Positions 21,114 through 60,683 are shown, counted from the stretch's first letter. The stretch is DNA of 64,000 bases from a bacterium (GCA_037143195.1 JBAWZD010000001.1:16892-80891); one strand, 5' to 3'. Numbers and translations: made by a program. Notes: generated by a model not told the origin, from the letters alone.

Positions 21114-21120
21114 AAGGGGA

Positions 21121-21147: not shown

Positions 21148-21188
21148 GTGCGTGGGGCACATGTGTCATTGCTTTCAAAAAACAAATC

Positions 21189-22985
21189 ATGTCTTCTTCA
21201 GTTGAAAAAATTAAGGAACGACTCTCAATTGTTGATGTGATTTCTTCGTACTTAAAACTCGAAAAATCAGGAAGTAATTACAAGGCTCCGTGTCCTTTTC
21301 ACAACGAAAAAACACCGTCATTTTTTGTTTCGCCGTCACGCAATAGTTACTATTGTTTCGGCTGTGGCGCCAAAGGCGACATCTTTACGTTCGTCGAGCA
21401 GTTTGAGGGACTCGATTTCAAAGGCTCCCTCAAGCAACTCGCCGCACGTGCAGGTGTTGATCTTGAACCATATCGAGGAAGTGACCCGAAAGAAAAAAAT
21501 GAAAAAGATCGTCTCCATGAACTCATGGAAGCGGCGTGTGCGTTCTATCAATCCGAATTGAAAACATGTTCTGATGCACTCGCATATCTCACGAAGCGTG
21601 GTGTCAAAGATATGACGCTCGCACATTTTCGTATCGGGTATGCGCCAAAAGAATGGCGCGCACTTGCGAACGCACTTCGCAAACAAGGCTTCACTGATAC
21701 TGAGATTGTGCTCGCTGGTCTCGCGAAACATCCTGACGAAAATCCAAGTGGCGATATCTATGATCGCTTCCGCGATCGAGTCATGTTCCCAATCAGTGAC
21801 ACGAGTGGACGCATCATCGCCTTTAGTGGACGAATGCTTCATGATGATGGTTCTGGAATGCAGGGAAAATATATCAACTCACCAGAGACGCCGATCTTCA
21901 AAAAGGGAAGTACACTCTACGGGCTTGATAAGGCAAAGTTTGAAATCCGAAAACGTGATGCTGCTATCCTTGTCGAAGGACAAATGGATTTGGTGCTTTC
22001 GCATCAAGCAGGATTTACGAACACAGTCGCCTCAAGTGGTACAGCGCTCGGAGATTCGCTCATTGCTGATACTGACAAAGGTTTGCTCTCAGGTCTTGGC
22101 GCAGTGCATGCACTCACCAAAAATCTCATTGTTGCATTTGATGCAGACAAGGCCGGACTTCGTGCCGCCGGTCGTGCTGAGAAGATTGGATTGTCGCTTG
22201 GGATGAATGTGAAGATTGCCAAGCTTCCGTCGGGTCTTGATCCAGCAGATACAATCCTCACAAAGGGTGCAGAAGAATGGAAAAAGATTGTTGATACAGC
22301 ACAGCATATCGTCCTCTTGTATCTCTCTGTGCTCATGGAGCACCCACTCAGTGAGCTCACACGCGCACGCGCAATTCGAGACAAGATATTGCCGTATATC
22401 GCAGTGATGCCGAGTGCTGTTGAGCGAGTGCACTTCATCCGTGAGATTGCCGTAAAGACCGGTATTCCTGAGGAAGCACTAGCTGAAGATGTTGTTCGAT
22501 TGCTCGTTGCAACACCAGCATCTGCGCCTAAAAATCAGTCACCAGTGGTGCAACCAAATACGGTGAGTGCGGGAGTCGTGCGAACCACACGCATTCTTGA
22601 TCGATTGCTCGGCGTTGTGTTTTGGCAAGAGACGATTTCCGGATCTGTTATTCCGATTGATTCAGTCAAGGAACGCATCAAAAGTATCATTGGCGCCGAA
22701 TCATTTGAACGTATGATGACGATGCCGAATGACAAAAAAAATGAACGTATTTTTGAAGTCGAACTTGTGTATCAAGATTCAAAAGATTTGAAAGAAGACG
22801 TTGAAGAATTACTCGATAATTTGGAAGAAGAAACGCTCGGAAGAGCACTCGAGGCTTTGATGGCAAAGATGTCGCATGCTGAGAGAGGTGAAGACGGCGA
22901 GGTCCTTCAATCCTTGCTCGCCGAATCACAGAAGATAAGCGCACGCCTCAATACCATTAAAAGCAGTCGATTTTTACATAATTAA
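21189..22985 (+). CDS. dnaG: DNA primase
   Basis: Zinc-binding [11 protein letters not shown]...[11 protein letters not shown] and a TOPRIM region (EGQMDLV...DAD). Confidence 0.9.
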
Positions 22986-46707: not shown

Positions 46708-47175
46708 ATGAAAAACAAACAAGCTGGTTTTACCTTGATTGAACTTTTGGTCGTCATCGCGATTATCGGTATTCTTGCGACTATCGTGCTTACATCGCTT
46801 GGAAGTGCTCGTGTAAAAGCAAATGATGCGAAAGTTCAAGCACAACTTTCTTCGATGCGTGCGCAAGGAGAAATGTTTTTTGGCGATAATTCTAATTATG
46901 GTAGTTCACAATCTTCATATGGAGATTGTCATACAGGGGAGTTATTTCTTAGTGGATCGAATACACTCTTTTCGCTTATTACTGCGATTCCATCAACATA
47001 CACGGTAGCTTGTTATGAAGATCCGTATGGTTCAGGAAGTGCCAGTGTTTGGGCTGTTACGGCTTCGAATGGTCTTACCGTGGGGGGTGCTTCGTGGTGC
47101 GCAGATAGTACCGGTCAGTTTAAGAATTACTCAGGATCAACTCCTGTGACTCCAGTGCTTGCAGTTTGTCAGTAG
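46708..47175 (+). CDS. Type IV pilin / pseudopilin with a prepilin N-terminal methylation motif
   Basis: KQAGFTLIELLVVIAIIGILA class III signal peptide; a C-terminal Cys pair. Confidence 0.85.
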   Translation: MKNKQAGFTLIELLVVIAIIGILATIVLTSLGSARVKANDAKVQAQLSSMRAQGEMFFGDNSNYGSSQSSYGDCHTGELFLSGSNTLFSLITAIPSTYTVACYEDPYGSGSASVWAVTASNGLTVGGASWCADSTGQFKNYSGSTPVTPVLAVCQ

Positions 47176-47228: not shown

Positions 47229-47259
47229 GTGTCTTTGTCTCGCGAGAATCGAACAGGTG

Positions 47260-47332
47260 TGGACCCTAGGAGATTCGAACTCCTGACCTCCTCTTTGCAA
47301 AAGAGGCGCTCTACCAACTAAGCTAAGGGCCC
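47260..47332 (-). tRNA. tRNA-Ala (anticodon TGC), G3:U70 and A73 present, CCA not encoded
   Basis: The reverse complement is GGGCCCTTAGCTTAGTTGGTAGAGCGCCTCTTTTGCAAAGAGGAGGTCAGGAGTTCGAATCTCCTAGGGTCCA, with a cloverleaf and anticodon loop TTTGCAA. Confidence 0.85.
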
Positions 47333-47467: not shown

Positions 47468-50400
47468 ATGGACTGGCTTTCTGATTTTGCTAGCCGTATC
47501 CAAGAGAAACTCGATAAATATACGCGCGAGTTTTTTGTCGTGACTACTCATTTTTTGAATCGAATTACGAAGCGTTTAGGCAGTTCTTTTACGTTTACAA
47601 AAGAAAAAACACGCATATCGGTGATTGGACTTGTTGTAGTACTTGTCACTTCGTCTATCATTTTTGCTCCACATAGTTCTGCGACGGTTTCTGATTTTTA
47701 TCCAGGTACTTGTTCTGGTGGGTGGCTCAATCCTCAGAATGCCACTGGTTTACCGTCACTCGATGGGGTGCAGCCTGCGAATAGCTATACAGAAAAAAAT
47801 TCTGCTGTGCTTAATAATTCACATTCTGATATCGTTTGTAATAACTTTGCCGGAAATATTCCAAGTGGAACAAATCCAAAAACATTTACGGTTAAATTCC
47901 ATTGGTCGATTGACGACGGATCTGTTGCACATGATGGGGTGTCTACTCCCACACCAGCTACGACAACAGATGTTATTTCTGCACCAGCTACGACGTCTCA
48001 ATCACCAAGCGACACCACCACAGCTACACAAACTCCAACCGATACAAAAACTACAACTGACACAACAATCCCTGCATCAACAATCACGACACCAACACCA
48101 ACACCAACTTCAGACACGACAACGACTCCACCAGCTACACCAGTAATCACACCTGATGCAACTCCGGTAGTTCCAGCAACTCCGGTACTTACTGCGCCAA
48201 CTACTTCGTCCGATACTCAGCCCGCAGCAGACACGACAATTCCAACAACAACGCCTGCGGCTACTACTGCAACAACCGATCAACCAAAGACAGTAGCGTC
48301 TGCATTCAAAAAAACACTTGCAACTCTCGATGCGCTTGTAACGGACGCGTTGAGTGCTGGTGACACAACAATGTTTCATTCTCCAAGTGATATGTTTGTC
48401 GTTCGCTATTCCGTAGACGGAACTAACTGGAACGATATTGGCACAGTCAATGCTGCAAATTGGCAGACTGCTACGTTTACGATATCTGGGCCAGACATCG
48501 CAGGATGGAGTGATCTTTCAAAATTACATGTTGGACTTTTTAGTCTTTCTCCTGATGGAACACAGCCTGTTGTGTATATCGATGCTGTTGAAGTCGATGT
48601 TGATTATGCTGATGCGAGCACTTCAGTTATCGTTCCGACAGTGAAAGTCGTCGACCCGTCTATCTCAATCGTTGCTCCGCAAAAAGATAATTTTACTTTG
48701 GATGAGGCACCGGTGTTTTCTATCACTAACCCAAATCTTTCAACTGCTCAAATTTTACACCTTGTTCAAAATGACAAAGCCGTCGTTGTTGACGACCACT
48801 TGGGTGTTTTTTCTGAGACAGCACCCAAAACGATACCAACGCAACCTCCGACGAGTCAGACAGATACAGGCCCGACAAGTTCGACTTTGACAGCACCAGC
48901 GCAATCTCCAAGCGACACCACCACAGCTACACAAACTCCAACCGATACAAAAGCTACGGCTGATACAAAAGTTCCCACTGATACAAAAACTACAACTGAC
49001 ACAACAATCCCTGCATCAACAATCACGACACCAGAACCAACACCAACACCAACACCAACTTCAGACACGACAACGACTCCACCAGCTACACCAGTAATCA
49101 CACCTGATGCAACTCCGGTAGTTCCAGCAACTCCGGTACTTACTGCGCCAAGTGAAACAACATCAGCTCAAACTGTAACGCCAGCACCAGTATCGGCGCC
49201 TGTTCAACCAGTTTCAGATTTGAATAGCGCGATTTCGACGAGTACGGCAGATTCTTCAAACCTCGGCGCGTTTGCTGTTGGTGCGCTTGGATCGGATATC
49301 ACTGGCGTCCAAGCGTTTCAGAAAGTTGATTTCAAGCACCTATTTGCGAACACCGTTCTGCGCTATTACAGCATGATGCGACAGGTATTTCGTATGTCGT
49401 TTGCAAACGCATTGCTTGCGCTTGCGGGGGACACGGCATCATCACCAATCGATGCTGTGGTGCTCGATGCTTCAGGCAATCAAACGACGATTGCAGTTAC
49501 AGTACAACATGTGGTCGTGAATGGTGTTGGTCAAGATCAAGTTGTCGTCAGTAAGCCTGACAATATGTTTCGTCCTGGAAAATATACGCTTCAAGTTACA
49601 TTACATACTCCCGACGTGAATATCATTTCCGAACAAGATTTTTCATGGGGCGTACTTGCAATCAACGTTGATCGTTCCGTCTATCACGCAGGAGACACCG
49701 CGTATGTACAGATGGGTGTGATTGACGACTTTGGGCATACAATCTGTGATGCCGACATGACGCTCGTTATTACGAGTCCATTTGGTGTTGATCAGACATA
49801 CACGACGAGTGATGGGACTGTCGTACGCGAACCGCAATGTGGACCGGACAATTATATTCATGTCCCTGATTACTATGCACATCCCCATATTGGGAGCGAG
49901 GAAGGTGTGTATCATATGACACTCACGGCGAATACGCGAAATGGTATTCGTACGGTACACGATGCGTTTACGGTCAGCTCTGATATTCCATTTGATGTTG
50001 TGCGTAGTGGTCCGACTCGTGTGTATCCGGCCGATAAGTATCCGGCAGAAATGCAGATTACTTCGCCTGTCGATTGGCAGGGAACAATCGTTGATACGCT
50101 ACCGAGTTCTTTTGAGGTGAGTGCGCTCGATGGAGTGGCTCTGTATGATACTGTGACGACGACTGGTGATACAACGACGGTGACATGGAATGTTTCGCTC
50201 GTCGCAGGCAAAACAACAACTATCGGATATTCATTCTTGCCGCCACCAATCAGTCCAGAATTTTATTTGCTCGGACCGCTCACTTTTTATAATAAAGGTG
50301 ATGACAGTACGACTGCCATTCCGGTCTTTAAAGAAATGCGTCGTTGGCAAATCGCAGACGATTCTTCATGTACATATATCGGTCCAGCGATTGGATTTTG

Positions 50401-53400
50401 GAATAATGCGAGTAACTGGAGTTGTTTACGTGTGCCAACAACGGGCCCAAATAGTGATACGGTAACAATTCCGACTGGAAATACTGTTACTCTCGACACG
50501 AACACACCAGCAACTGGTGGTGCGCTTACCTTACTTACTATTGCGGGGACACTAAAGACAGGATCTGCTGGTGTTGATTACAATATAAATACTACGGCTT
50601 TAACCATAAGTAGTGGAGGTGTTTTGAATGCAACTTCGGCCGCTTCGGGTTCGACGATCATTATTAACGGGAGCGGGACGGGTGCAGGTCGCCCATTTCA
50701 GAATGCCGGAACATTTACGCCCGGAACTTCTACTTTTCAATATGTTACTTCAGGTACTGATATCGAGGCTACTACGTATTATAACCTTACCATCAATGGT
50801 GGATCTGGAAACGACACATTAAATGGCGATACTATTGTTACGAATAATCTTTTGGTGGGAAACGCGAGTAGTGGTGTTGCCTTTTCTACATCAGCAACTT
50901 CCAATTATCGCCTTACTGCAGGACACATCACATTAGGTCCTGTATCTGCGGGCAGTATGACCTTCGCTGCGAATGCCTCAACTATTACCCTTACTGGTGA
51001 TACCTCTTTGCCACTGTTTACCAATAGTGTCGCTGGGGGCAGTACTGCCTTCATTGCTGGAACTTCAACAATTTCTGTTACGAGTGATTATAGCGGTGTA
51101 ACTATTTTTGGAGGATTGGCCACTAACTTTTACAATATCACGTTACAGCCAAACTTTTCCGCTGCTACCTGTGCTTCTGGAACATGTAATTATTCAGTCG
51201 GGGTTTTGCCGACAGTAGCAGCAGCAGGTCTATTTGACGTAAAACCGAACGGATCGGGGCATACGTTAACAGTTGACGTAAATACTATTGCAACGAATTC
51301 AACTTTTGGCGCTTCAGCTACTGTTAAAATAGAAGGCACCGCGGGCGCTTCTGGCGTCCTGACAGGGTCCGGATGCGTGTATACTGCGAGTACGTTGCCA
51401 ACGTTTTATGGGGTGATAACAACTTTGAACGGAGCAAGTGGGTTAGGAACATCGTTTTTAGTTAATTCGTCTGCTGGCATTGTTCCGGGAGAGCCAATAC
51501 AGATTGACTCAGAAGAGATGCTTGTGAATACCGTTGTTGGTTCAACGCTTAATGTTACTCGTGGTTTGAATGGAACCTCGATTGTGAGTCATGCGACTTC
51601 TGCCATAGTTATTGAACCATATCAGCCAATGGGGACGCCGTGTTATACAAAAACAATTGATGTCGAGTCCGGAGGCACGTTTAGCGGATCTTCGACATTT
51701 TTTGAGGTCTCAAATATTTTGGTCGGGAACGGAGGACAATTCAATGCAGGTTCATCCTCATTTATTTATACAGATGGTCTTATTAGTTCGAATCAAATTC
51801 TGATTTCGAGCGGAGGTACATTTAATGCAGGAAGTAGTATTATAAATATAGGTGGAGATAATACGTTACAAAGTACTGGTACTACAAATACTTTTATAAC
51901 GAATAATGGTACATTCACCGCTGGAACTTCAACTGTCTATTTTAATATGGTAAATAATGGTTCGGCAGTTAATCAAATTTACAATGCTGGTTTGTGGACA
52001 GGCAGCAACAAGTTTTATAATCTTGCTCTGAATACGTATGTTCCAGGTACAAATAATTATCAATTGGGAGCTGATACTGAAGTTGCAAATATCGTATCAT
52101 ATGGTAGATGGGGGGCTCGATTAGATACAAATAATTTTAATTTAACTGTTGGGTATGTTGATTTTTGCCATTCTCTCGGACTGGGGGCATTTATTGTTAC
52201 GAATGCTTCGGGCACCAAAAGTGTAACGCTCAACGGTGCATCAGGAACATTGTTTAATAATGTGAATAGTGGTACTGGAGCCTTTGCAAAAACGTGTACT
52301 GGAGCATCTGCTATGACTACGACAACTGCGAATTTCGCAGTAACGAGCAATGCGAGTGTGACTATATTTGGGGTGTCTGCAATTTCATTTACAAATTTAA
52401 CCTTCGCTCCTCCTGCACTGCTAGCTGATGCAACATACACAATGGGTATTGTGCCGACACTCTCAGGTAGTTTAACAAGTAATCCATTGTCGCCGAGTGG
52501 CACCCCAACGCTCTTACTTTCTGGAGCATTAACAATTCCAGCAGCAAAAACGTTCACGGTTTCTGGAGATAGCCACACAAGTACAAAATTGTTGAGTAAT
52601 TATAGTGTGGGGCTCGTCTCAATTGCGTCAACTGGTATTCTTCTGGCAAATACTACAACATTGACGATAACAGGTACATCTGGAACTTTATTTGCAAACA
52701 GTGGAACATTTACGCCTGGGACTTCGACTGTGACGTTTGGTGGAGCGAGTGTAAGCGCAACTTTGGACTCGGGCAACTTTGCTATTAGTGGTACCTCAAC
52801 AAATAACTTTTACAACCTCACGATAACTGGCACAGGTACATTTACCCTTGGTGCGCCAACTGAAGTGACCGGTACTTCTGGTATTTCTCTTCCAGCGAAC
52901 GTAACACTTGATGCTTCGTCTTCGGCATGTTCAGGTTTAAGTTGTAACATTACGGCAGCAACTATTTTTATTACAAGTAATGCTGGTTCAATATTCAACG
53001 CAAGAAATGCAACTATCAAGTTGACTGGTACCGGAACTCCTGCAACACTCTTCACACGCGGTTCCGCAGGAGTGTTTACTGCGGGTACTTCGACGGTCCA
53101 AGTCATGACTCCGTCAGGAGTGGCACGTTTCCTCTCTGGTGCGGGAACGGTATTTTATAACGTGACGATCGGGGATGCCGGAGTCAGTGCCACTGTTGTA
53201 AATGCGGGAGACAACTTCACTATTGCGAGTGGAGGTACATTTTACTTGAAGAATGGCAGTTTTGATCTCGACGGTTCTACAGTTGCTGTGATTACGGCAT
53301 CGTCATCGACGACCATGCGCATGGATTCTGGTACGCTCTTTTGTATTGGAGGTACGACTGGTGCCTCGGCGCTCGCCGATTGTACCGGAGGTGTGGCTTC

Positions 53401-54169
53401 GACTGGTGCACTCGCATCTGCTCCAGCATTCACGACATTTACCTTTGCTTCAGGTTCAACAATCAAATACTTGAATGCTGCAGCCCAGACTGTTTTCACT
53501 GCATTCCCATACGTTAACCTTACGGTTGCACCGATAGTGGCAGCAGCTACGACATATGCAATGACGGCTGCATCGATGACGGTGAACGGCAATCTTACGG
53601 TCAATCCGACAGGATCTGCGTTTGCGTTTGTGTGGAATATGTCTGGTTCGATTGCGATTACCCCGCAGGATGGTACGACAAGCGCAGTAAACGAAATGCT
53701 GATTAAAAAATCAGGCTCAGTCACATCTGTTACGGTAAACACGAACAATAATACAATTACGACAGGTACGATGGATATCGAGTCGGGCGCGACACTTAGC
53801 GCTGGTTCGTCCAATATTACAGTGCCGGGCAACTGGATTTGTAACGGGACGTTCACTTCAGGTACTTCAAGCGTTCTCTTGAGTAACACGATCACCACAC
53901 TTCCATCATCAACACTCACTACCGTTGGGGGAATCAACAGTGCCGTTCTCTCATTTTCTGTCGCATCCGGGACCGGCATTGTCGCGGGGGAAACGATTCA
54001 GATTGATAACGAAATGATGCAGGTGACAGCAGTCAGTGGAACGACAGTTACCGTCGCGGCTCGTGGAGCAAACGGCACGGCAGCTATCAGTCACTCAGCC
54101 GGAGCGACGGTGCTAGTCATTGTCGGCGTTGTATCAGGAACAACGTCATTCGCAAACTTGATCATCTAA
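47468..54169 (+). CDS. Giant (2233 aa) cell-surface protein: N-terminal anchor, Thr/Pro mucin-like repeats, and a long array of predicted parallel beta-helix-like Gly/Thr/Ser/Asn-rich repeats
   Basis: A single uninterrupted ORF. Signal-anchor helix (ISVIGLVVVLVTSSIIF). The recurrent motif F.NAGTFT.GTSTV appears at least five times. A duplicated ~45-aa module GE.IQID.E.M.V...G.T..V.RG.NGT..SH..A occurs near aa 1360 and at the C-terminus. Confidence 0.8.
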   Translation: MDWLSDFASRIQEKLDKYTREFFVVTTHFLNRITKRLGSSFTFTKEKTRISVIGLVVVLVTSSIIFAPHSSATVSDFYPGTCSGGWLNPQNATGLPSLDGVQPANSYTEKNSAVLNNSHSDIVCNNFAGNIPSGTNPKTFTVKFHWSIDDGSVAHDGVSTPTPATTTDVISAPATTSQSPSDTTTATQTPTDTKTTTDTTIPASTITTPTPTPTSDTTTTPPATPVITPDATPVVPATPVLTAPTTSSDTQPAADTTIPTTTPAATTATTDQPKTVASAFKKTLATLDALVTDALSAGDTTMFHSPSDMFVVRYSVDGTNWNDIGTVNAANWQTATFTISGPDIAGWSDLSKLHVGLFSLSPDGTQPVVYIDAVEVDVDYADASTSVIVPTVKVVDPSISIVAPQKDNFTLDEAPVFSITNPNLSTAQILHLVQNDKAVVVDDHLGVFSETAPKTIPTQPPTSQTDTGPTSSTLTAPAQSPSDTTTATQTPTDTKATADTKVPTDTKTTTDTTIPASTITTPEPTPTPTPTSDTTTTPPATPVITPDATPVVPATPVLTAPSETTSAQTVTPAPVSAPVQPVSDLNSAISTSTADSSNLGAFAVGALGSDITGVQAFQKVDFKHLFANTVLRYYSMMRQVFRMSFANALLALAGDTASSPIDAVVLDASGNQTTIAVTVQHVVVNGVGQDQVVVSKPDNMFRPGKYTLQVTLHTPDVNIISEQDFSWGVLAINVDRSVYHAGDTAYVQMGVIDDFGHTICDADMTLVITSPFGVDQTYTTSDGTVVREPQCGPDNYIHVPDYYAHPHIGSEEGVYHMTLTANTRNGIRTVHDAFTVSSDIPFDVVRSGPTRVYPADKYPAEMQITSPVDWQGTIVDTLPSSFEVSALDGVALYDTVTTTGDTTTVTWNVSLVAGKTTTIGYSFLPPPISPEFYLLGPLTFYNKGDDSTTAIPVFKEMRRWQIADDSSCTYIGPAIGFWNNASNWSCLRVPTTGPNSDTVTIPTGNTVTLDTNTPATGGALTLLTIAGTLKTGSAGVDYNINTTALTISSGGVLNATSAASGSTIIINGSGTGAGRPFQNAGTFTPGTSTFQYVTSGTDIEATTYYNLTINGGSGNDTLNGDTIVTNNLLVGNASSGVAFSTSATSNYRLTAGHITLGPVSAGSMTFAANASTITLTGDTSLPLFTNSVAGGSTAFIAGTSTISVTSDYSGVTIFGGLATNFYNITLQPNFSAATCASGTCNYSVGVLPTVAAAGLFDVKPNGSGHTLTVDVNTIATNSTFGASATVKIEGTAGASGVLTGSGCVYTASTLPTFYGVITTLNGASGLGTSFLVNSSAGIVPGEPIQIDSEEMLVNTVVGSTLNVTRGLNGTSIVSHATSAIVIEPYQPMGTPCYTKTIDVESGGTFSGSSTFFEVSNILVGNGGQFNAGSSSFIYTDGLISSNQILISSGGTFNAGSSIINIGGDNTLQSTGTTNTFITNNGTFTAGTSTVYFNMVNNGSAVNQIYNAGLWTGSNKFYNLALNTYVPGTNNYQLGADTEVANIVSYGRWGARLDTNNFNLTVGYVDFCHSLGLGAFIVTNASGTKSVTLNGASGTLFNNVNSGTGAFAKTCTGASAMTTTTANFAVTSNASVTIFGVSAISFTNLTFAPPALLADATYTMGIVPTLSGSLTSNPLSPSGTPTLLLSGALTIPAAKTFTVSGDSHTSTKLLSNYSVGLVSIASTGILLANTTTLTITGTSGTLFANSGTFTPGTSTVTFGGASVSATLDSGNFAISGTSTNNFYNLTITGTGTFTLGAPTEVTGTSGISLPANVTLDASSSACSGLSCNITAATIFITSNAGSIFNARNATIKLTGTGTPATLFTRGSAGVFTAGTSTVQVMTPSGVARFLSGAGTVFYNVTIGDAGVSATVVNAGDNFTIASGGTFYLKNGSFDLDGSTVAVITASSSTTMRMDSGTLFCIGGTTGASALADCTGGVASTGALASAPAFTTFTFASGSTIKYLNAAAQTVFTAFPYVNLTVAPIVAAATTYAMTAASMTVNGNLTVNPTGSAFAFVWNMSGSIAITPQDGTTSAVNEMLIKKSGSVTSVTVNTNNNTITTGTMDIESGATLSAGSSNITVPGNWICNGTFTSGTSSVLLSNTITTLPSSTLTTVGGINSAVLSFSVASGTGIVAGETIQIDNEMMQVTAVSGTTVTVAARGANGTAAISHSAGATVLVIVGVVSGTTSFANLII
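48003..48200 (+). repeat. Copy 1 of a ~200-bp near-identical intragenic direct repeat (copy 2 at 48906-49150 carries two short in-frame insertions)
   Basis: DNA-level identity read directly: ...accaagcgacaccaccacagctacacaaactccaaccgatacaaaa... ...ccggtagttccagcaactccggtacttactgcgcca. It encodes QSPSDTTTATQTPTDTK...TPVLTAP twice. Confidence 0.85.
48906..49150 (+). repeat. Copy 2 of the intragenic direct repeat
   Basis: See copy 1. Confidence 0.85.
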
Positions 54170-54173
54170 AAGT

Positions 54174-56114
54174 ATGGTACTATTTTCACACACATCTATG
54201 TTTGGAAAAAAAATACAAAAAATTACTTTTTCAATCATCATTCTCTCCTTGTTGCTTGGGTTTTTTCCGAGTGACACATACGCGCTCGTTGCACTTTGGA
54301 CTGCGTCGCCAATTGCTACATCTACGGGAACAAAGACTGCTATTGCAACATCGGCAGATGGAACAAAACTTCTTGCGGGAGAAGGAGGTGGAACGAACGG
54401 AAAATTGTGGCTCTCGACGAACAGCGGTGTTTCGTGGACAGCACTGAGTACTGCGAGTTCGGGAATGGCGAATGGCAACTGGTTTGCGACTGCTATTTCT
54501 AACGATGGCCGAACAATGGCCGCTATTGATACAAATTCCGAAGGTACAACAATTGGACACGTTTGGACCTCTGTTGATGGAGGGACGACCATGGTAAAAC
54601 AAAATGGTACGAATGCCCCGTACGCTGCTCTGCTCGGCTTGGCTATGGCTGTAAGTGGATCCACAATCACAATAGTTGCGAGTGGAAGTAACGCTGATTA
54701 TTTATACACAGGGACTTGTTCAACCTCGTGCGGACTTACAACGAACTGGACTTGGACCAAATTAACATCTGCTGGTTCGGGAACATGGCGTGGAGTAACG
54801 ATAGATTCGACAGGGACAAAAATAGCAGGTGTTTTGAACGGTGGGTATATCTGGACAGGTACGTATAGCGGTTCGTGGACGATGACTCAACAAACCGGAG
54901 CCGGTTCACATACGTGGCTTGGAATTGCTTCGTCGCAAGATGGGAGCAGACTTGCTGCGACTATGAGTGGTGGCGATATTTGGACAGCGCAAGCACTCGG
55001 TACAGGCGCCTGTACTAGTAGTGCTACAGGGTATTGTTGGACTGACCAAACAGGATCAGGATCGAGCGCTTGGTACCAAATTGCGTCGTCAGCTGATGGT
55101 ACCAAGTTGCTTGCAGCTTCTTCGTTCTCAGGATCATCAAGTGTGTATGTCTCAAGTGATAGCGGGGTAACATGGGTTGCGCAACCTTCTGCGGGTAGTC
55201 GACCATGGCGCCAACTTGCGATGTCGTCTACTGGTCAATATATGTATGGTGCGGATTTGAACACATCAACAAACGGGATGATCGTTTCAGGGTACTCTCC
55301 GCAATTTTCTAAGCTAGTCCAATTTAGTGGAAGTGTTACTACTTCAAACTCATTTTCGGTAACTGGATACAGTGGAGGACTCATCAAACTTTATTCAACC
55401 AAGCCTGGTACTACGTGGTCGCTTACTCCCGCATTGACGGCGAATAATTCTGTTTCTTTTGCTGATGTGCAAGACAGTAGTTGCTCGGGCGCATCGAGCA
55501 CGAAAGTGATCAATGCGGCTTCGAGTACAGACGATGGACGCAATTCGTTGATTGGTACCGGCGGATGTTGGAATTTCACTCAGCCATATTTGAACTTTTC
55601 AATTTCAGCGACGGCGGTAGATTTTGGAGCTCTCCCAATCGGCACTGCTCGGTATGCAACTGGGAACGCACTTTTGGGAGGATCTCCCACCGATGTTGCC
55701 GCTCATCAGATTACAATTGCCACAAGTGGATCGGGTGGTTTCAATTTGTATGCGCAAGGACCATCGCTTACTTCTAGTACCCACACAATGCATTCGATTG
55801 GCGGAGTAAATACAAACATTTCCTCGTTTACGCCGACAACAGAAGAATTCGGAATTCGTCTTGTGAGAACGTCGGGGCCGGGTACTGTTGCAGGCGATAC
55901 ATTGCTCGTTCCGCCAACTGCGTATGATTATGGTGGAAATGGGTCAGGATATACTTATAACGGAGATGTTACAACTCCTGTTATCGCGACATATCGCGGA
56001 AGTTTGTTGACGACGACGGTATATGACGTACATTATGTTGCCTACGCGGTGGGTACGACGCCGTTGGGGAATTATTCGACCAATATTACCTATCTTGCAG
56101 TCGGAAACTTTTAG
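54174..56114 (+). CDS. Secreted BNR/Asp-box beta-propeller-like protein with a C-terminal WxL-like (Y-x-L variant) surface domain; the start is probably the Met at 54198
   Basis: Signal peptide (KITFSIIILSLLLGFF). Repeated S-x-D-G-x-T-W Asp-box motifs (STNSGVSWTAL, TSVDGGTTM, SSDSGVTWVA). The C-terminal ~180 aa are homologous to the C-terminus of the next protein and end NITYLAVGNF. Confidence 0.65.
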   Translation: MVLFSHTSMFGKKIQKITFSIIILSLLLGFFPSDTYALVALWTASPIATSTGTKTAIATSADGTKLLAGEGGGTNGKLWLSTNSGVSWTALSTASSGMANGNWFATAISNDGRTMAAIDTNSEGTTIGHVWTSVDGGTTMVKQNGTNAPYAALLGLAMAVSGSTITIVASGSNADYLYTGTCSTSCGLTTNWTWTKLTSAGSGTWRGVTIDSTGTKIAGVLNGGYIWTGTYSGSWTMTQQTGAGSHTWLGIASSQDGSRLAATMSGGDIWTAQALGTGACTSSATGYCWTDQTGSGSSAWYQIASSADGTKLLAASSFSGSSSVYVSSDSGVTWVAQPSAGSRPWRQLAMSSTGQYMYGADLNTSTNGMIVSGYSPQFSKLVQFSGSVTTSNSFSVTGYSGGLIKLYSTKPGTTWSLTPALTANNSVSFADVQDSSCSGASSTKVINAASSTDDGRNSLIGTGGCWNFTQPYLNFSISATAVDFGALPIGTARYATGNALLGGSPTDVAAHQITIATSGSGGFNLYAQGPSLTSSTHTMHSIGGVNTNISSFTPTTEEFGIRLVRTSGPGTVAGDTLLVPPTAYDYGGNGSGYTYNGDVTTPVIATYRGSLLTTTVYDVHYVAYAVGTTPLGNYSTNITYLAVGNF

Positions 56115-56177: not shown

Positions 56178-57332
56178 ATGAAAAAAAATAGTATGATTAA
56201 GAATAAATTTTTGCGATTTTTGTCGCCACTCATGTCGTTCGTGCTTGTTCTTGCAACGGCAGGGTTGTTCAATGTCTCTATAGTGAGAGCTGCCTCTTTG
56301 ACTCTCTTGTCAGATACCCTTACGGATGAGACGACGGGGGCTCCGACAAATAATGATATTCTTTTTACGACAAGTTCTACCATTCCTACCAATGGCACAA
56401 TCACACTTTCATTTAGTGCCGGTAGCGTTACTTCAGGAATCACAACTTCGGATGTGTTTTTGTCAGTAGGTGGTGGCGCAAACGTTGCGCAAGTCGGATC
56501 TGCTACTTCATCTCTGTGGGGATTCGCTCGAACAAGTGCAACTCTCATTACGATTACAGCGCCAACAAGTGGCTCAACTTCTGCGAGTGCAATCGAAATT
56601 AAACTTTTGAACAATAAATTTACGAATGGTGCTGCTGGAACGACTTTGTTGACTATCACTACGACAAACGCAGCATTTGCAACTTTGGATACTGGGGTGA
56701 TAGCGATTCCAATTTTGTCACCAACCACAACAGGTGATCAGGTTGCAGTTACAGCTACAGTGAATCCTACGATTAGTTTTTCACTTGATTCAAACTCAGT
56801 TGATTTCGGACCTCTGACACCTGGTACGGGCAAGTGGGCAACATCACCATCAGGATCTGGAGGCTCAGGAAGTGATGTCGCGGCTACGAACATGACGATT
56901 TCGACGAATGCTGCACATGGGTACACGCTTACATATACTGCGGCCGCTCCACTTACTTCAGGATCAAATACGATTCCAGCGACAACGCTTTGTAATACAC
57001 TGACGACGACAGGAGGCACATCAACATCGCAGTTTGCGATGAGTGAGGTAGTTACTGGTTCTGGAACACCGGTAACTAGTTACAACCATGCGAATGCATC
57101 AGCCACAACTCTTTCGGGAAGTAGCGGTACGTCAGGAGCAACTTGTACCGGTACAGGAGGAACTCGTCCGAATTGGAACTTTGTTTCGGGTACAACGACG
57201 CCGATAGTCACAGCTACATCTGCTGTTGCGGGTGATACGGTAGCGATGCACTATATGGCAAACGTATCCGGCACTCAGGCCCCAGGTACCTATAACCTTA
57301 CTATCACTTATCTTTTAACGGGTAATTTTTAA
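56178..57332 (+). CDS. Secreted surface protein with a C-terminal WxL-like (Y-x-L variant) domain
   Basis: Signal peptide. The C-terminal domain ISFSLDSNSVDFGPLTPGTGKWATSP...GTYNLTITYLLTGNF is paralogous to the C-terminus of the 54174 protein. Confidence 0.65.
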   Translation: MKKNSMIKNKFLRFLSPLMSFVLVLATAGLFNVSIVRAASLTLLSDTLTDETTGAPTNNDILFTTSSTIPTNGTITLSFSAGSVTSGITTSDVFLSVGGGANVAQVGSATSSLWGFARTSATLITITAPTSGSTSASAIEIKLLNNKFTNGAAGTTLLTITTTNAAFATLDTGVIAIPILSPTTTGDQVAVTATVNPTISFSLDSNSVDFGPLTPGTGKWATSPSGSGGSGSDVAATNMTISTNAAHGYTLTYTAAAPLTSGSNTIPATTLCNTLTTTGGTSTSQFAMSEVVTGSGTPVTSYNHANASATTLSGSSGTSGATCTGTGGTRPNWNFVSGTTTPIVTATSAVAGDTVAMHYMANVSGTQAPGTYNLTITYLLTGNF

Positions 57333-57337
57333 TTCTT

Positions 57338-58399
57338 ATGAAAATAAAGACACTCCAAGGTGTGATGTTTGCTGTGTTGCTTGCGTTTGGTTTTGTATCT
57401 CCACAAATAACTCACGCGCTTACCATAACTCCTTCACGCCTTGAATTGAGTGGAGATCCGGGTACGACTGTCACTGAAAAAATGACAGTGGTCAACGATC
57501 AAAACGTTCTTGGAACATACTATTCTTCCTACGCGAACTTCGAAGCCGAGGGGGATACAGGAACCCCAGCGCTTGTTGAAGCCAAAGATGATCTTGGGAC
57601 GTGGATGAGTACTCCAGATTCTATTGTGGTAGCACCAGGTGGATCAAAGGAAGTTGTAATAAAAATTGCAATTCCTAAGAATGCTACACCGGGAGGTCAC
57701 TTCGCGGCCATTTTTTGGGGAACTCAGCCAACAAAGAATGCAAATAAAAATATAGGTATTGGTGCAAAGACTGGCATGCTCGTTTTGCTCACTGTAAATG
57801 GAAATATTCCAGAGCAGGGAGGTGTGACCGAGTTTGATACCATCGGAAGCACTCATTACTTCAACGCACTGCCGATTCCTTTTTACTACCGTTTCCAAAA
57901 TGGAGGAGGTGATCGCATCAATCCAAGTGGTGACATTCTTATGAAGGATATGCTTGGGCTTACAGGAGCAAAAGTTCCTGGTAATCCAGTTGATGGAAAT
58001 ATTCTTCCACTCAGTACTCGCAAATTTACAACAACATGGTCAGGTGGTGCAGGGGAAGAAGGTAAGCTTCCAAAAGGATTCTTTGCCGCTGCAAATTATG
58101 AGTTACACAACTTTGCACTTGGACGTTACACTGCTCACCTCAAACTCACATATGGCTCGAAGGGGGTAGTGACTGATTCAGTCGTTCATTTTGTTGTGTG
58201 GCCATGGCATCTCGTCGTGTTTGTTCTCATCCTCGCATTTGTTATCTTCCTCGTTGTTCGCTACGCAGTACTCCATGGAGAAAAATGGGTAGTCAACAAA
58301 GCTGAGAAAATGCTTGAGAAAGACGAAGAAGCAAAAATCGAAGAACGAGTTGAAGAAAAATTGAAAGAAATCGAAAAGGAGAAAGAAACAAAGCAGTAA
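57338..58399 (+). CDS. DUF916-like (CscA-like) cell-surface protein with a C-terminal TM anchor and a charged tail
   Basis: Signal peptide; an N-terminal domain (ITPSRLELSGDPGTTVTEKMTVVND..., IKIAIPKNATPGGHFAAIFWG) resembling DUF916; a C-terminal TM helix (HLVVFVLILAFVIFLVV) plus a KE-rich tail. Confidence 0.55.
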   Translation: MKIKTLQGVMFAVLLAFGFVSPQITHALTITPSRLELSGDPGTTVTEKMTVVNDQNVLGTYYSSYANFEAEGDTGTPALVEAKDDLGTWMSTPDSIVVAPGGSKEVVIKIAIPKNATPGGHFAAIFWGTQPTKNANKNIGIGAKTGMLVLLTVNGNIPEQGGVTEFDTIGSTHYFNALPIPFYYRFQNGGGDRINPSGDILMKDMLGLTGAKVPGNPVDGNILPLSTRKFTTTWSGGAGEEGKLPKGFFAAANYELHNFALGRYTAHLKLTYGSKGVVTDSVVHFVVWPWHLVVFVLILAFVIFLVVRYAVLHGEKWVVNKAEKMLEKDEEAKIEERVEEKLKEIEKEKETKQ

Positions 58400-58462: not shown

Positions 58463-59698
58463 GTGAAGCACTCAATTTTCCCAAAAAAAATCAGACGAGC
58501 GTTTAGTATTCTTTTTGTCTGTACGTTTGTGCTTGGATTACTTCCTCAAACTTCTTTTGCTACTCCATCACCAATTTCAGATGGCGTTACGATTTCTGCT
58601 CAGGTCGTAAGTGTCGGTTCAGTTGTTCCTCCGACGGTCACTACAGATCATCCATTGGTGACTGTGAGCGACAACGGGGCGACGTTGCTCGGAACACTCT
58701 CCGACGGTGGAGATTCTGCTGTGACAACCGAAGGATTTGAATATGGACTCGCGTCGCCTTCATATGGAACGACAACGACTTCAACATCAGTTGGTTTTGG
58801 TAATGGACAATTCAACGCGATCATAACGGGTCTCGTATGTGGCACGACGTATCACTATCGTGCGTATGCAGAAAACGGTGCCGGTCGTGCATACGGAACA
58901 GACCAAACATTTACAACGAATGATTGTTCTGTGAATGTACTTCCAGTCACTTCCCCGGGGAATGGAGGAATACTTACTGCGTCGGCGGTAAACTTTTCTG
59001 GCTTTGCATACCCAGGAGCGACAGTGACAATCCTGCGTGACGGCGTAATTGTTTCAAATGTTCTTGCGGATTCATCCGGAGCGTTTCTGTCGCCGGTGTC
59101 GGGAATTCAAGCAGGTTCATATGTTTTTTCTATCTATGCAAAAGATCAGAATGGTGTTGTGTCAGCGTCCACGACATTTCCATTTGTCTTGAATGGAAAA
59201 TCAGTCGTGAATATTACCAACATATTGGTTGCTCCGACAATATCAGCAGACAAGACGATTGTGCAGTCAGGCGACACACTCACTGTTTCCGGTTTCGCTA
59301 CTCCGTACGCAAAAGTTGCAATCACGAGTAAACAATTGACCACCGTGTACGACGCTATCGCTGATGCTGGTGGCCGATATCAATATCAGATTGATGCATC
59401 AGCGCTCGCAACTGGTGCCTACACCATGCACGCCATTGATATTGTTGCGGGGCAGAGTAGTCCTATCAGTAAAGGTATTCTCTTTTTGATGGGCCTCTCG
59501 ACGACCAAAGTAAAAGAGACCAATCTCGGATGCGCAGGCGGTGATTTAAATGGAGATGGCAAAGTGGACATCATCGATTATTCAATCATGAAATATTGGT
59601 ACAAAAAACCAAATCCACCAGCATGTGTTGATCTCTCTGGCGATGGAGCGATCAACTTGAAAGATTTTAGTATCCTCGCTTCTGATTGGACAGGATAA
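58463..59698 (+). CDS. Secreted multi-Ig/FN3-like protein with a C-terminal dockerin-type duplicated calcium-binding module
   Basis: Signal peptide. The C-terminus carries DLNGDGKVDIIDYSIM ... DLSGDGAINLKDFSIL, two dockerin-like Ca-binding loops. Confidence 0.65.
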   Translation: MKHSIFPKKIRRAFSILFVCTFVLGLLPQTSFATPSPISDGVTISAQVVSVGSVVPPTVTTDHPLVTVSDNGATLLGTLSDGGDSAVTTEGFEYGLASPSYGTTTTSTSVGFGNGQFNAIITGLVCGTTYHYRAYAENGAGRAYGTDQTFTTNDCSVNVLPVTSPGNGGILTASAVNFSGFAYPGATVTILRDGVIVSNVLADSSGAFLSPVSGIQAGSYVFSIYAKDQNGVVSASTTFPFVLNGKSVVNITNILVAPTISADKTIVQSGDTLTVSGFATPYAKVAITSKQLTTVYDAIADAGGRYQYQIDASALATGAYTMHAIDIVAGQSSPISKGILFLMGLSTTKVKETNLGCAGGDLNGDGKVDIIDYSIMKYWYKKPNPPACVDLSGDGAINLKDFSILASDWTG

Positions 59699-59702
59699 TT
59701 GT

Positions 59703-60683
59703 ATGAGTATAGCGAAACTACAAAAAAATTCGTTTTTCTTCATCGTTCTCTTTTTTTCGATGTTCGTTTTTTCGCATCAGGCCCGAGCGGCGAGTATTAC
59801 ATTTCAAACGTCATCGACGGTCGTGCACCAAGCACAAAATATTGCGATTGATGTCTTGCTTGATCCGCAAGGTCAAAATGTGAACACCGTCTCAGCGACT
59901 GTTTCAATTCCAACAGATCTTGATTATGTTGGTGTTGATGACAGCTCCTCGATTATTAGTTTGTGGGTTGATGAACCAAAGTTTGACAAGAAAACTCGTA
60001 CCATGACACTCTCAGGAATTATCCCTGGAGGATTTGCAGGATCGATTGATCCGTTTAATCCGTCTGAATACAAGGCGGGTATCCTCATTCGATTGTTACT
60101 CCGAGGCCGTACAGCAGGTTCAGGATTGTTTTCACTTCCTGATGTCGAAGCATATTTGAATGATGGTCTCGGCACACAGACCCATGTTTCATCTGGTTCG
60201 CTCCCACTCGTCGTCGATGAATTGTTGCAACCTGGATCGCTTGATTTCTTCCCAGACAACCAAGCTCCGCTTGAATTCCAGCCAGTTGTCGAACGTGATT
60301 TGCTCCTCTATGATAATCAACGCGTACTCATTTTCAATACCAAAGACAAAGGCTCAGGTATGGATCACTATGAGGTCAAAGAAGGGAATGCTTCATGGGT
60401 AGTCGCAGTAAGTCCATACCTCTTGAAAGATCAGGAGATGAAGGGAGATATTTTGGTGAAGGCGGTGGATCGTGATGGCAACGAACGTATCGAAGCTATT
60501 CCCGCAGCGAATCCGTTCAACAAATGGCAAATCGTTGGACTGTTTGTAGTGTTCATATTGCTTGTGGTGCTCACGATGATGCACCTGTCCCACCATATGC
60601 ACCATTCAATCAAGAAGCATATTGAGAAGAAAGAAACTGAAAAGGGTGGATCAGCCAAGGAGGACGTAATTCAGAAAGTATAG
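59703..60683 (+). CDS. Membrane-anchored protein with an N-terminal cohesin-like beta-sandwich domain (candidate dockerin receptor)
   Basis: Signal peptide, a cohesin-like segment (ITFQTSSTVVHQAQNIAIDVLLDP...VSATVSIPTDLDYVGVDD), and a C-terminal TM helix (IVGLFVVFILLVVLTMM) with a His/Lys-rich tail. Confidence 0.45.
   Translation: MSIAKLQKNSFFFIVLFFSMFVFSHQARAASITFQTSSTVVHQAQNIAIDVLLDPQGQNVNTVSATVSIPTDLDYVGVDDSSSIISLWVDEPKFDKKTRTMTLSGIIPGGFAGSIDPFNPSEYKAGILIRLLLRGRTAGSGLFSLPDVEAYLNDGLGTQTHVSSGSLPLVVDELLQPGSLDFFPDNQAPLEFQPVVERDLLLYDNQRVLIFNTKDKGSGMDHYEVKEGNASWVVAVSPYLLKDQEMKGDILVKAVDRDGNERIEAIPAANPFNKWQIVGLFVVFILLVVLTMMHLSHHMHHSIKKHIEKKETEKGGSAKEDVIQKV

What the first reader, a model, noticed from the sequence alone, without database searches (positions are those of the whole stretch)
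47468..54169. 2233-aa giant surface protein built from beta-helix-like G/T/S/N repeats
A single 6.7-kb ORF. The repeat unit containing NAGTFT.GTSTV recurs many times, typical of parallel beta-helix adhesin or autotransporter-passenger folds. A ~45-aa GE.IQID.E.M.V...RG.NGT..SH module is duplicated mid-protein and at the extreme C-terminus. Proteins this large are a substantial investment in a small genome and often mediate host or episymbiont attachment.
Basis: partly seen in the sequence, partly recalled or inferred. Interest (0 to 1): 0.55.

Follow-up and report, generated by a model that had tools for sequence, protein, structure and literature searches.

The report
Giant beta-helix surface fibre protein
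This is a real 2,233-residue surface protein of an ultra-small (Patescibacteria) bacterium, built as flexible spacers, an antibody-like stalk and a long beta-helix rod, and it heads a conserved gene cluster that resembles the WxL surface-display clusters of Gram-positive bacteria.

Summary
The ORF (47468..54169, +, 2233 aa) is real and intact. It is under purifying selection (Ka/Ks 0.13 against an 86%-identical orthologue that stops at the same place).

Only the C-terminal 56% (aa 984-2233) is the G/T/S/N repeat region. It has a Pfam G8 hit. An AlphaFold model is all-beta, with three short strands per ~25-residue coil. Fold matches to beta-helix proteins are not significant.

The N-terminal 44% holds a leader plus hydrophobic segment, two Thr/Pro-rich spacers and an Ig-like/MG2 stalk. 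The stalk module occurs in 363 loci of Patescibacteria and DPANN archaea.

The duplicated 'GE.IQID...RG.NGT..SH' module is real. It belongs to a large family with no Pfam entry and matches phage tail-protein PHROGs.

It is not an autotransporter.

Most relatives end in a ~180-aa C-terminal domain (CTD) that this protein lacks. Here the CTD sits on the next two genes, followed by a WxLIP-like membrane protein. CTD and WxLIP-like genes are adjacent in 28 of 29 metagenome loci. The CTD shows no sequence or fold match to WxL.

Attachment to a host is plausible but untested. It is an ordinary kind of protein in an undescribed cluster variant.

The parts
47468..54169 (+). Giant gene, 2233 codons plus TAA stop
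   Evidence: Identical to P0001. Ka/Ks 0.13 against the orthologue in L001.
47468..47683 (+). Leader, aa 1-72: a ~49-aa charged N-region, the hydrophobic segment ISVIGLVVVLVTSSIIF, then APHSSA|T. Either a signal anchor or a cleaved signal peptide.
   Evidence: Read directly. Homologues have the same layout with A-x-A-like sites. Ka/Ks 0.05. No signal-peptide predictor was available.
47684..47947 (+). Conserved N-terminal domain, first part (aa 73-160)
   Evidence: Conserved in P0003-P0006 and P0009. No Pfam match.
47948..48367 (+). Thr/Pro-rich spacer 1 (aa 161-300)
   Evidence: Composition. Duplicated at aa 461-606 with 59% identity. Ka/Ks 0.18.
48368..48847 (+). Conserved N-terminal domain, second part, plus a further globular segment (aa 301-460)
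   Evidence: Conserved in homologues. Ka/Ks 0.07.
48848..49285 (+). Thr/Pro-rich spacer 2 (aa 461-606). It holds an 18-nt tandem array and shares a 112-nt perfect repeat with spacer 1.
49286..50416 (+). Stalk module of Ig-like/MG2 domains (aa 607-983), ending in EMRRWQIADD
   Evidence: Stand-alone ~600-aa homologues exist. Pfam MG2 hits 17 of 21 members and WxLIP_HBD 4 of 21. 363 loci in GTDB genomes. Ka/Ks 0.04.
50417..50641 (+). G8 domain match (aa 984-1058), the start of the beta-solenoid
   Evidence: Pfam PF10162, E 1.2e-5, 25.6 bits against a cut-off of 22.9, profile positions 2-69 of 124.
50417..51367 (+). Beta-solenoid repeat region, first block (aa 984-1300)
   Evidence: Internal repeats and motif recurrences. 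This block was not modelled; it is extrapolated from aa 1620-2140.
51368..51622 (+). Module copy 1 (aa 1301-1385), 'GE.IQID.E.M.V...RG.NGT....H'
   Evidence: PHROGs virion structural / tail protein families at 3e-4 to 1e-3. Family of 3256 representative proteins.
51623..53866 (+). Beta-solenoid repeat region, second block (aa 1386-2133)
   Evidence: AF2 model m8501ad018d6f covers aa 1600-2233. Residues 21-540 of the model are all-beta, with block pLDDT mostly 70-90. Periodicities of 8 and 25 residues.
53867..54121 (+). Module copy 2 (aa 2134-2218)
   Evidence: PHROGs tail protein phrog_1101 5e-7 and tail fibre phrog_11439 1e-6. pLDDT below 50 in the model.
54122..54166 (+). Last 15 residues, 'VGVVSGTTSFANLII'. 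This is the point where homologues continue into a cap element and the CTD.
   Evidence: Compared with P0005 'ISGTTSFNNLTI...'. The orthologue in L001/L007 ends at the same place.
54174..56114 (+). 646-aa secreted protein. It has its own signal peptide, a new N-terminal part with three S.D.G.TW-like motifs, and the ancestral giant tail (cap element plus CTD).
   Evidence: Aa 386-646 are 59.5% identical to the last 261 aa of P0003 (E 1.5e-86), and the N-part matches no giant. CTD HMM 8e-52.
56178..57332 (+). 384-aa secreted protein with the CTD at aa ~193-384, the 'small' CTD protein
   Evidence: In the AF2 model the CTD has pLDDT ~80-86.
57338..58399 (+). 353-aa WxLIP-like protein: signal peptide, beta-rich ectodomain, C-terminal transmembrane helix, Lys/Glu-rich tail
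   Evidence: Pfam WxLIP_PGBD hits 7 of 7 family members (best 1.3e-8; the window's own 0.028). The profile hits PDB EfmWxLIP1 at E 0.006.
58463..59698 (+). 411-aa Ig-like (Big_6/Big_13) protein with a dockerin
   Evidence: Conserved in L003-L006.
59703..60683 (+). 326-aa protein with a signal peptide and a C-terminal transmembrane helix; cohesin-like by homology
   Evidence: Homologous to L005 and L006 proteins that carry weak precomputed Cohesin hits. The window protein itself has no Pfam hit.
47259..47332 (-). tRNA-Ala (TGC), between the upstream pilin-like gene and the giant gene

Best explanation
The gene encodes a fibrous cell-surface protein of a Patescibacteria (CPR) bacterium.

Shown:
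- It is a real, selected gene.
- The N-terminal hydrophobic leader directs export.
- Two Thr/Pro-rich low-complexity spacers flank a conserved N-terminal domain.
- Next comes a stalk of Ig-like/MG2 domains, a module shared with hundreds of CPR and DPANN proteins.
- Last comes a ~1,250-residue beta-solenoid that opens with a G8 motif. It carries two copies of a small domain also found in phage tail and tail-fibre protein families, one inserted mid-rod and one at the tip.
- The gene heads a conserved cluster. In most relatives the giant ends in a ~180-aa C-terminal domain (CTD). It is followed by a ~370-aa protein with the same CTD, a WxLIP-like membrane protein, an Ig/dockerin protein and a cohesin-like membrane protein.
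- In this lineage the giant stops exactly at the junction. The ancestral tail is fused to a new secreted protein, encoded by the next gene.

Inferred:
- The spacers and stalk carry the rod away from the membrane and through the wall.
- The rod and its tip domains contact a partner surface (host cell or polymer).
- By analogy with WxL clusters, the CTD docks cargo proteins onto the WxLIP-like anchor.
- Because this giant has lost the CTD, it would be held by its own N-terminal segment, or be released.
For: - Gene reality: an identical protein is on record. The 86%-identical orthologue has the same stop, with Ka/Ks 0.13 overall and 0.04-0.26 in the structured parts.
- Export: the leader and hydrophobic segment are conserved in all homologues.
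- Stalk: ~600-aa stand-alone homologues exist, with Pfam MG2 in 17 of 21 members. There are 363 genome loci.
- Beta-solenoid: G8 scores above its Pfam cut-off. The AF2 model has pTM 0.71, is all-beta, and shows 8- and 25-residue periodicity. The top fold matches are all beta-helix proteins: Ag43, Hap, tailspikes, an antifreeze protein.
- Module: PHROGs tail and tail-fibre families at 5e-7 to 1e-6, and 3256 representative proteins.
- Cluster: synteny holds in L001-L006. 16 of 27 bacterial stalk loci have a CTD protein and a WxLIP-like protein downstream. 28 of 29 CTD-seeded metagenome loci have a WxLIP-like gene directly downstream. WxLIP_PGBD hits 7 of 7 members, and the profile hits PDB EfmWxLIP1.
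- Fission.
- Precedent: giant membrane proteins of CPR bacteria are proposed to mediate host attachment (PMC8080830).
Against: - No homologue has been studied experimentally.
- Fold-search matches for the rod are not significant (best E 0.11 in PDB, 0.014 in BFVD). Handedness and cross-section could not be inspected.
- The first rod block (aa 984-1600) was not modelled, and both module copies are unmodelled or of low confidence.
- No recognised adhesive or ligand-binding domain is present.
- Whether the leader is cleaved is unknown. If it is cleaved, this CTD-less protein has no evident anchor.
- The CTD shows no sequence similarity to WxL (0 of 14 members). Its best fold matches are chaperone-usher pilins, and they are not significant. 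The docking step is therefore analogy only.
Confidence: 0.6

Rival explanations
1. The rod is an enzyme. It would be a G8 plus beta-helix polysaccharide lyase or hydrolase, like tailspike depolymerases, PL6 lyases or the G8-bearing hyaluronidases CEMIP/TMEM2. It would digest host wall or capsule rather than merely bind it.
For: G8 match. The non-significant fold matches include PL6 alginate lyases, tailspikes, RbmB lyase and a GH28 enzyme. From my own knowledge, G8 precedes a catalytic beta-helix in CEMIP/TMEM2. Giant proteins of predatory bacteria have been linked to wall degradation (bioRxiv 10.1101/2023.11.21.568195).
Against: No lyase, hydrolase, PbH1 or Beta_helix family matches at E up to 1. 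In each 100-residue window of aa 1001-2233 there are only 1-7 Asp+Glu and 0-4 Lys+Arg, which is poor material for catalytic grooves. The rod varies freely in length and repeat number among relatives, as expected for a structural rod.
Confidence: 0.15
2. It is a structural envelope component, such as an S-layer-like coat, sheath or spacer that shapes the cell surface, with no specific partner.
For: High Thr/Ser/Gly/Asn content and few charges. It sits in a core chromosomal neighbourhood in conserved synteny (UvrABC, Ddl, then the giant). The S-layer protein RsaA appears among the weak fold matches.
Against: The distal parts (rod length, inserted modules, DUF2341/LamG, other cargo) change between relatives while the stalk is constant. 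That is the pattern of a variable outward-facing tip rather than a lattice. The module is shared with phage tail and tail-fibre protein families.
Confidence: 0.15
3. It is an autotransporter or two-partner-secretion passenger.
For: Weak fold resemblance to Ag43, Hap, EspP, TibA and IgA1 protease passengers.
Against: No beta-barrel translocator and no TPS domain. The C-terminus is the small module plus 15 residues. No neighbouring gene has a detected Omp85/TpsB-type domain. The matches are not significant.
Confidence: 0.02
4. It is an assembly artefact or a decaying pseudogene that only looks like one long ORF.
For: Repetitive genes are prone to mis-assembly. The homologue P0004 is split into two ORFs in its MAG.
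Against: The same ORF is found in independent assemblies, with the same start and stop. Ka/Ks is 0.13 with Ks 0.57. Apart from one 112-nt repeat, the DNA repeats are diverged.
Confidence: 0.02

Closest known systems
Giant membrane/surface proteins of CPR bacteria (e.g. the ten longest proteins of Vampirococcus lugosii, 1392-4163 aa; PMC8080830)
   Same: Size range, predicted envelope location, an ultra-small symbiont or predator lineage, and a proposed role in host recognition and attachment.
   Different: No sequence relationship was tested. The Vampirococcus proteins are described with WD40, TPR and PKD domains. This protein has spacers, an MG2-type stalk, a G8/beta-solenoid and a tail-fibre-type module.
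WxL surface-protein clusters of Firmicutes (small WxL, large WxL and WxLIP = DUF916-DUF3324-TM; PMC9772566, PMC10599100)
   Same: The cluster logic matches. Two secreted proteins share one C-terminal domain: one is small and one is large, with N-terminal cargo. Next to them is a protein with a WxLIP_PGBD-like ectodomain and a C-terminal transmembrane helix.
   Different: The shared C-terminal domain is not detectably a WxL domain (0 of 14 Pfam hits). It has (Y/F)x(L/I) where WxL has WxL. No HBD (DUF3324) is detected in the WxLIP-like protein. The cluster also holds a dockerin and a cohesin-like protein. The host phylum is Patescibacteria, whereas more than 91% of WxL sequences are in Firmicutes. 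The giant in this window has lost the CTD.
Fibrillar adhesins (anchor, then stalk repeats, then distal binding region) and beta-helical adhesins such as Ag43, Hap and TibA
   Same: An elongated modular layout, with an Ig-like stalk and then a beta-solenoid. Weak fold matches to these passengers.
   Different: No LPXTG, barrel or other known anchor. No recognised adhesive domain. The matches are not significant.
G8-domain proteins (Pfam PF10162)
   Same: The G8 match lies at the point where the solenoid starts, and the same family is precomputed for P0003 and P0005.
   Different: Only profile positions 2-69 of 124 are matched. No PbH1 repeats are detected after it.
Phage tail-fibre, tail and virion structural proteins (PHROGs 1101, 11439, 7578 and others)
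   Same: They share the ~60-85-aa 'I.ID.E.M.V....G..L.V.RG..GT.A..H..G..V' module.
   Different: Only the small module is shared. tblastn of the module against 50,697 phage genomes gave no match. The gene lies in a core chromosomal region, not a prophage.

Membership tests
Autotransporter (type Va) passenger | C-terminal beta-barrel translocator domain | tested here: not met
   No Autotransporter family at E up to 1. The protein ends in the small module plus 15 residues.
Autotransporter (type Va) passenger | Right-handed beta-helical passenger | tested here: inconclusive
   The AF2 model is an all-beta solenoid with a 25-residue period. Ag43, Hap and EspP are among the matches, but at E of 0.4 or more and TM of 0.30 or less. 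Handedness was not inspected.
Pectate-lyase-like parallel beta-helix (PbH1 / Beta_helix) | Sequence match to PbH1, Beta_helix or Pectate_lyase families | tested here: not met
   None at E up to 1 in Pfam or NCBIfam. The A3 profile finds no PDB sequence.
Pectate-lyase-like parallel beta-helix (PbH1 / Beta_helix) | Three-stranded coils of ~22-25 residues | tested here: met
   Strand spacing of 8 residues and autocorrelation peaks at 8 and 25 in the DSSP string of the model. This rests on a model with mean pLDDT 69.6.
G8 domain (PF10162) | Match above Pfam's gathering score | tested here: met
   25.6 bits against 22.9, E 1.2e-5, aa 984-1058. Coverage is partial, positions 2-69 of 124.
WxL cluster (Hassan & Williamson definition) | At least one WxLIP protein (PGBD + HBD + C-terminal TM helix) | tested here: inconclusive
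   PGBD hits 7 of 7 family members, best 1.3e-8, but the window's own protein scores only E 0.028, below the cut-off. PDB EfmWxLIP1 is hit at E 0.006. A transmembrane helix is present. HBD (PF11797) is not detected in these proteins.
WxL cluster (Hassan & Williamson definition) | Two adjacent proteins with a C-terminal WxL domain (dual Trp-x-Leu motifs) | tested here: not met
   Two adjacent proteins share a C-terminal domain. None of 14 CTDs hits Pfam WxL at E up to 10, and there is no PDB sequence match. The fold matches are chaperone-usher pilins and are not significant.
WxL cluster (Hassan & Williamson definition) | Tight genomic linkage of the tag-bearing proteins with the WxLIP gene | tested here: met
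   28 of 29 CTD-seeded loci have a WxLIP-like gene directly downstream. 16 of 27 stalk-seeded bacterial loci have both.
Fibrillar adhesin | Stalk of repeated Ig-like domains plus a cell-envelope anchor | tested here: inconclusive
   An Ig-like/MG2 stalk is present. The anchor is uncertain: the N-terminal segment may be cleaved, the CTD is absent, and there is no LPXTG.
Fibrillar adhesin | Recognised adhesive or ligand-binding domain, or shown binding | not testable with these tools
   No known binding domain was found. Binding needs an experiment.
Phage tail fibre | Encoded in a phage or prophage with other virion genes | tested here: not met
   The neighbours are RpoB/C, DnaG, RpoD, UvrABC, Ddl and GuaA. 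Only the 85-aa module matches PHROGs.

The most novel reading that the evidence does not exclude
Patescibacteria carry their own counterpart of the Gram-positive WxL surface-display system. An undescribed ~180-aa C-terminal domain, ending in ...TY(I/L)xTG(T/N)F, would act as an address tag. It would dock interchangeable cargo (giant beta-solenoid fibres, a propeller-like protein, a small subunit) onto a WxLIP-like membrane protein, beside a cohesin-dockerin pair. The giant protein is the ancestral large cargo. In this genome a gene fission has uncoupled it from the tag and handed the tag to a new cargo. The stalk module shared with DPANN archaea would then mark a common fibre scaffold of ultra-small episymbionts.
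Probability: 0.35. Interest if true: 0.6.

Novelty: new variant of a known kind. Interest (0 to 1): 0.42.

Why it matters
How ultra-small CPR bacteria hold on to their hosts is largely unknown, and giant surface proteins are the usual suspects. This analysis turns one anonymous giant ORF into a defined architecture.

It also shows that the gene belongs to a conserved five-gene surface cluster. The core pair of that cluster, a tag domain plus a WxLIP-like anchor, is tightly linked across many metagenomes. No paper in the searched library links WxL or DUF916 with Patescibacteria.

This yields concrete, testable candidates for attachment machinery: the CTD-anchor interaction and the variable tips. 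It also flags two widespread domain families with no Pfam match: the CTD, and the tail-fibre-type module with 3256 representative proteins. The giant protein on its own is an ordinary member of a known class.

Tried and rejected
- Whole-protein searches of Pfam, NCBIfam, PHROGs and PDB sequences gave only G8 and a weak MG2 hit.
- A third homologue search, with aa 985-1400, returned nothing, not even the query's own database entry.
- I first read the downstream 646-aa gene as a possible continuation of the giant. It has its own signal peptide and a 4-nt gap after a TAA stop.
- An uncorrected BLAST suggested that its N-part matched P0003's rod. With composition correction that match vanished.
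- CTD = WxL was tested three ways: Pfam on 14 members, a PDB profile search and Foldseek. None supported it.
- A WxL-like probe sequence written from memory found nothing in PDB and is not counted as evidence.
- Stalk and WxLIP-like profiles are unrelated (hhalign probability 0.6%).
- The upstream pilin-like gene is not a conserved partner. It is absent in L003 and L004, and a tRNA on the other strand separates it from the giant.
- tblastn of the module against phage genomes gave no match.
- Source names for module-family hits were all empty.

Full report
**Observation**

The ORF at 47468..54169 (+) is exactly as reported: ATG to TAA, 2233 codons. An identical protein is on record from an NCBI metagenome-assembled genome, on a 451-kb contig (P0001).

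The closest orthologue (P0002; loci L001 and L007; 86% identity, 2258 aa) starts and stops at the same residues. Ka/Ks against it is 0.13 overall, with Ks 0.57. By region it is 0.04 in the stalk, 0.10-0.26 in the repeat region, 0.08-0.24 in the two modules and 0.18-0.33 in the Thr/Pro spacers. The gene is real and under purifying selection along its whole length.

Looser forms occur 7-8 times, against 0.01-0.02 expected by chance. The duplicated module is confirmed and is longer than stated: aa 1301-1385 and 2134-2218, at 45% identity.

**Anatomy**

- Aa 1-72: a ~49-residue charged N-region, a hydrophobic segment, then APHSSA|T.
- Aa 73-160 and 301-460: conserved N-terminal domain segments.
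- Aa 161-300 and 461-606: Thr/Pro-rich spacers, duplicated at 59% identity. They share a 112-nt perfect DNA repeat.
- Aa 607-983: a conserved stalk ending in 'WQIADD'.
- Aa 984-2233: the G/T/S/N-rich repeat region, with very few charged residues.

So 'built from beta-helix-like repeats' describes 56% of the protein.

**The repeat region**

Pfam finds one family above its cut-off: G8, at aa 984-1058 (E 1.2e-5), exactly where the repeats begin.

I modelled aa 1600-2233 with an alignment of 14 repeat blocks from homologues (A3). The model has mean pLDDT 69.6 and pTM 0.71. Residues 21-540 are all-beta with no helix. Its 65 strands average 3.8 residues, start every 8 residues, and autocorrelate at 8 and 25 residues. 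That is three short strands per ~25-residue coil, the signature of a beta-helix.

I take the beta-solenoid reading as well supported. Membership of any particular beta-helix family is not shown. There is no autotransporter barrel, and no lyase or PbH1 family is detected.

**The module**

A profile of the four copies (two in the window, two in P0002) finds 3256 cluster representatives at E up to 1e-3 among 1.84 billion proteins. Some carry up to 28 tandem copies, at a period of about 60-90 aa. The consensus is 'TtitVasaagf..G..IqIDsEqMlVTavsGtTlTV.tRG.nGTTAAaHa.GA.V'.

No Pfam family reaches its gathering cut-off in the window protein or in the ten top hits scanned, except one SH3_15 match (29.9 bits against a cut-off of 24) in P0057. 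PHROGs places the module in tail, tail-fibre and virion structural protein families (5e-7 to 1e-6 for copy 2).

Among the eleven giant homologues, only the window protein and P0002 have it. Among 80 genome loci, only L007 does, and L007 carries the same gene as L001. It is therefore a lineage-specific insertion of a widespread mobile domain, once inside the rod and once at its end. Its structure was not resolved (pLDDT below 50).

**The stalk and the family**

Aa 607-983 has stand-alone ~600-aa homologues in Pacebacteria, Shapirobacteria and Roizmanbacteria. These have a signal or transmembrane segment, Ig-like domains, MG2 and a variable C-terminal payload. MG2 is detected in 17 of 21 members and WxLIP_HBD in 4 of 21.

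A pattern scan of one genome per GTDB species finds 363 loci. They lie in many Patescibacteria lineages and in DPANN archaea (Woesearchaeota, Nanoarchaeota). Complete stalk-bearing ORFs range from 904 to 3971 aa, with a median of 2139.

**The surroundings**

The window is core chromosome: RpoB, RpoC, DnaG, RpoD, ProRS, UvrB, UvrA, UvrC, Ddl, then the giant, and GuaA after the cluster. The order UvrABC, Ddl, giant is kept in L001, L003 and L004.

Downstream of the giant, related genomes (L003-L006) keep a cluster:
- a ~370-aa secreted protein;
- a ~350-aa protein with a signal peptide and a C-terminal transmembrane helix;
- an Ig/dockerin protein;
- one or more cohesin-like membrane proteins.

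Eight of the eleven giants end in a ~180-aa domain that closes with ...TY(I/L)xTG(T/N)F. For P0004 this holds only if the adjacent ORF is counted as its continuation. The same domain ends the ~370-aa neighbours.

The window giant and P0002 lack it. They stop at '...VSGTTSFANLII*', where P0005 reads on with 'ISGTTSFNNLTI...' into a cap element and the CTD.

In the window the missing tail is found on the next gene (54174..56114). Its aa 386-646 are 59.5% identical to the last 261 residues of P0003 (E 1.5e-86). Its N-terminal 385 residues are a signal peptide plus a segment with S.D.G.TW-like motifs, and they match no giant. L003 has no such gene. This is a gene fission or cargo swap, conserved in two related genomes (species-level relatives at 86% identity).

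**The WxL parallel**

All seven ~350-aa neighbours match Pfam WxLIP_PGBD (best 1.3e-8; the window's own 0.028). Their profile hits the solved structure EfmWxLIP1 (E 0.006).

Published WxL clusters are defined as at least one WxLIP plus two proteins with a C-terminal WxL domain. [quoted passage not shown] More than 91% of known WxL sequences are in Firmicutes (PMC9772566, PMC10599100).

The window has the same logic: a large CTD protein (646 aa), a small one (384 aa) and a WxLIP-like protein. In L003 the giant itself is the large one.

The linkage is strong in both directions. 16 of 27 bacterial stalk loci with enough flank carry both genes downstream; in 3 archaeal loci, none do. 28 of 29 CTD-seeded metagenome loci have a WxLIP-like gene directly downstream.

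But the CTD is not detectably a WxL domain. 0 of 14 members hit Pfam WxL, and there is no PDB sequence match. An AF2 model with CTD pLDDT ~80-86 gives only non-significant matches, mostly chaperone-usher pilins such as CsuA/B. I therefore file the cluster as working like a WxL cluster, not as a member.

**Mechanism**

- Shown: export signal, modular layout, solenoid rod, tail-fibre-type modules, conserved cluster, fission.
- Inferred: the spacers and stalk lift the rod off the membrane; the rod and tip contact a partner surface; the CTD docks cargo to the WxLIP-like anchor; this CTD-less giant is held by its own N-terminal segment or released.

The leader is highly conserved (Ka/Ks 0.05). Homologues P0007 and P0009 carry a helix-turn-helix domain before the hydrophobic segment. 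Both facts hint that the N-region is retained in the cytoplasm. The A-x-A-like site after the segment would, however, allow cleavage.

**Rivals**

An enzymatic rod and a structural coat each get about 0.15. Autotransporter and artefact each get about 0.02.

**Novelty**

Giant surface proteins of CPR bacteria are known and are already suspected of mediating attachment (PMC8080830). The protein alone is a new member of that kind.

The conserved CTD plus WxLIP-like cluster in Patescibacteria is the less expected result, together with the stalk shared with DPANN and the two domain families with no Pfam match. I found no paper in the library that mentions WxL or DUF916 together with Patescibacteria. 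Overall: a new variant of a known kind, of moderate interest.

Noticed in passing
window 30156..31958 (+): A 600-aa ORF with no Pfam match. It has a Glu/Lys-rich N-part and a His/Gly/Asp-rich stretch (HHTPKHDAHGSHDSHGGHHDTHGPGHAEHHGG). It lies in a 2-kb block of low GC (0.39) and strong skew, just before tRNA-Thr 32020-32095 (-).
   Followed up: partly
P0007 and P0009 (homologues), N-termini: These giant homologues start with an excisionase-type helix-turn-helix (precomputed PF12728 for P0007) ahead of the hydrophobic segment. A cytoplasmic DNA-binding-like domain is thus fused to a giant extracellular protein.
   Followed up: no
window 58463..59698 and 59703..60683: An Ig/dockerin protein and a cohesin-like membrane protein sit side by side. 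The pair is conserved next to the WxLIP-like gene in L003-L006, which suggests a cohesin-dockerin pair within the same surface cluster.
   Followed up: partly
L033, L042-L047, L054 and others (genome loci): The stalk module (WGVLAxNxxK motif) also occurs in giant ORFs of DPANN archaea (Woesearchaeota, Nanoarchaeota). There it comes without CTD or WxLIP-like neighbours.
   Followed up: partly
window 48089-48200 and 49040-49151: A 112-nt perfect direct repeat lies inside the two Thr/Pro-rich spacers, which are otherwise 59% identical at the protein level. This points to recent gene conversion or duplication.
   Followed up: no
L004 10001..19922 and 20023..22776: The 'partial' 3307-aa homologue P0004 continues in the next ORF (917 aa), which begins mid-repeat and ends in the CTD. 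The true length is about 4200 aa, or the MAG has a frameshift or stop there.
   Followed up: no
window 46708..47175 (+) and 47259..47332 (-): A type IV pilin-like gene (KQAG|FTLIELLVV) lies upstream of the giant, separated from it by a tRNA-Ala on the other strand. It is present in L001 but absent in L003 and L004, so it is not a conserved partner.
   Followed up: yes
window 54174..56114, aa 39-385: The new N-terminal cargo of the 646-aa CTD protein has three S.D.G.TW-like (Asp-box/BNR-like) motifs and repeated 'S.DG..L' motifs, but no Pfam match. It may be a divergent beta-propeller.
   Followed up: partly
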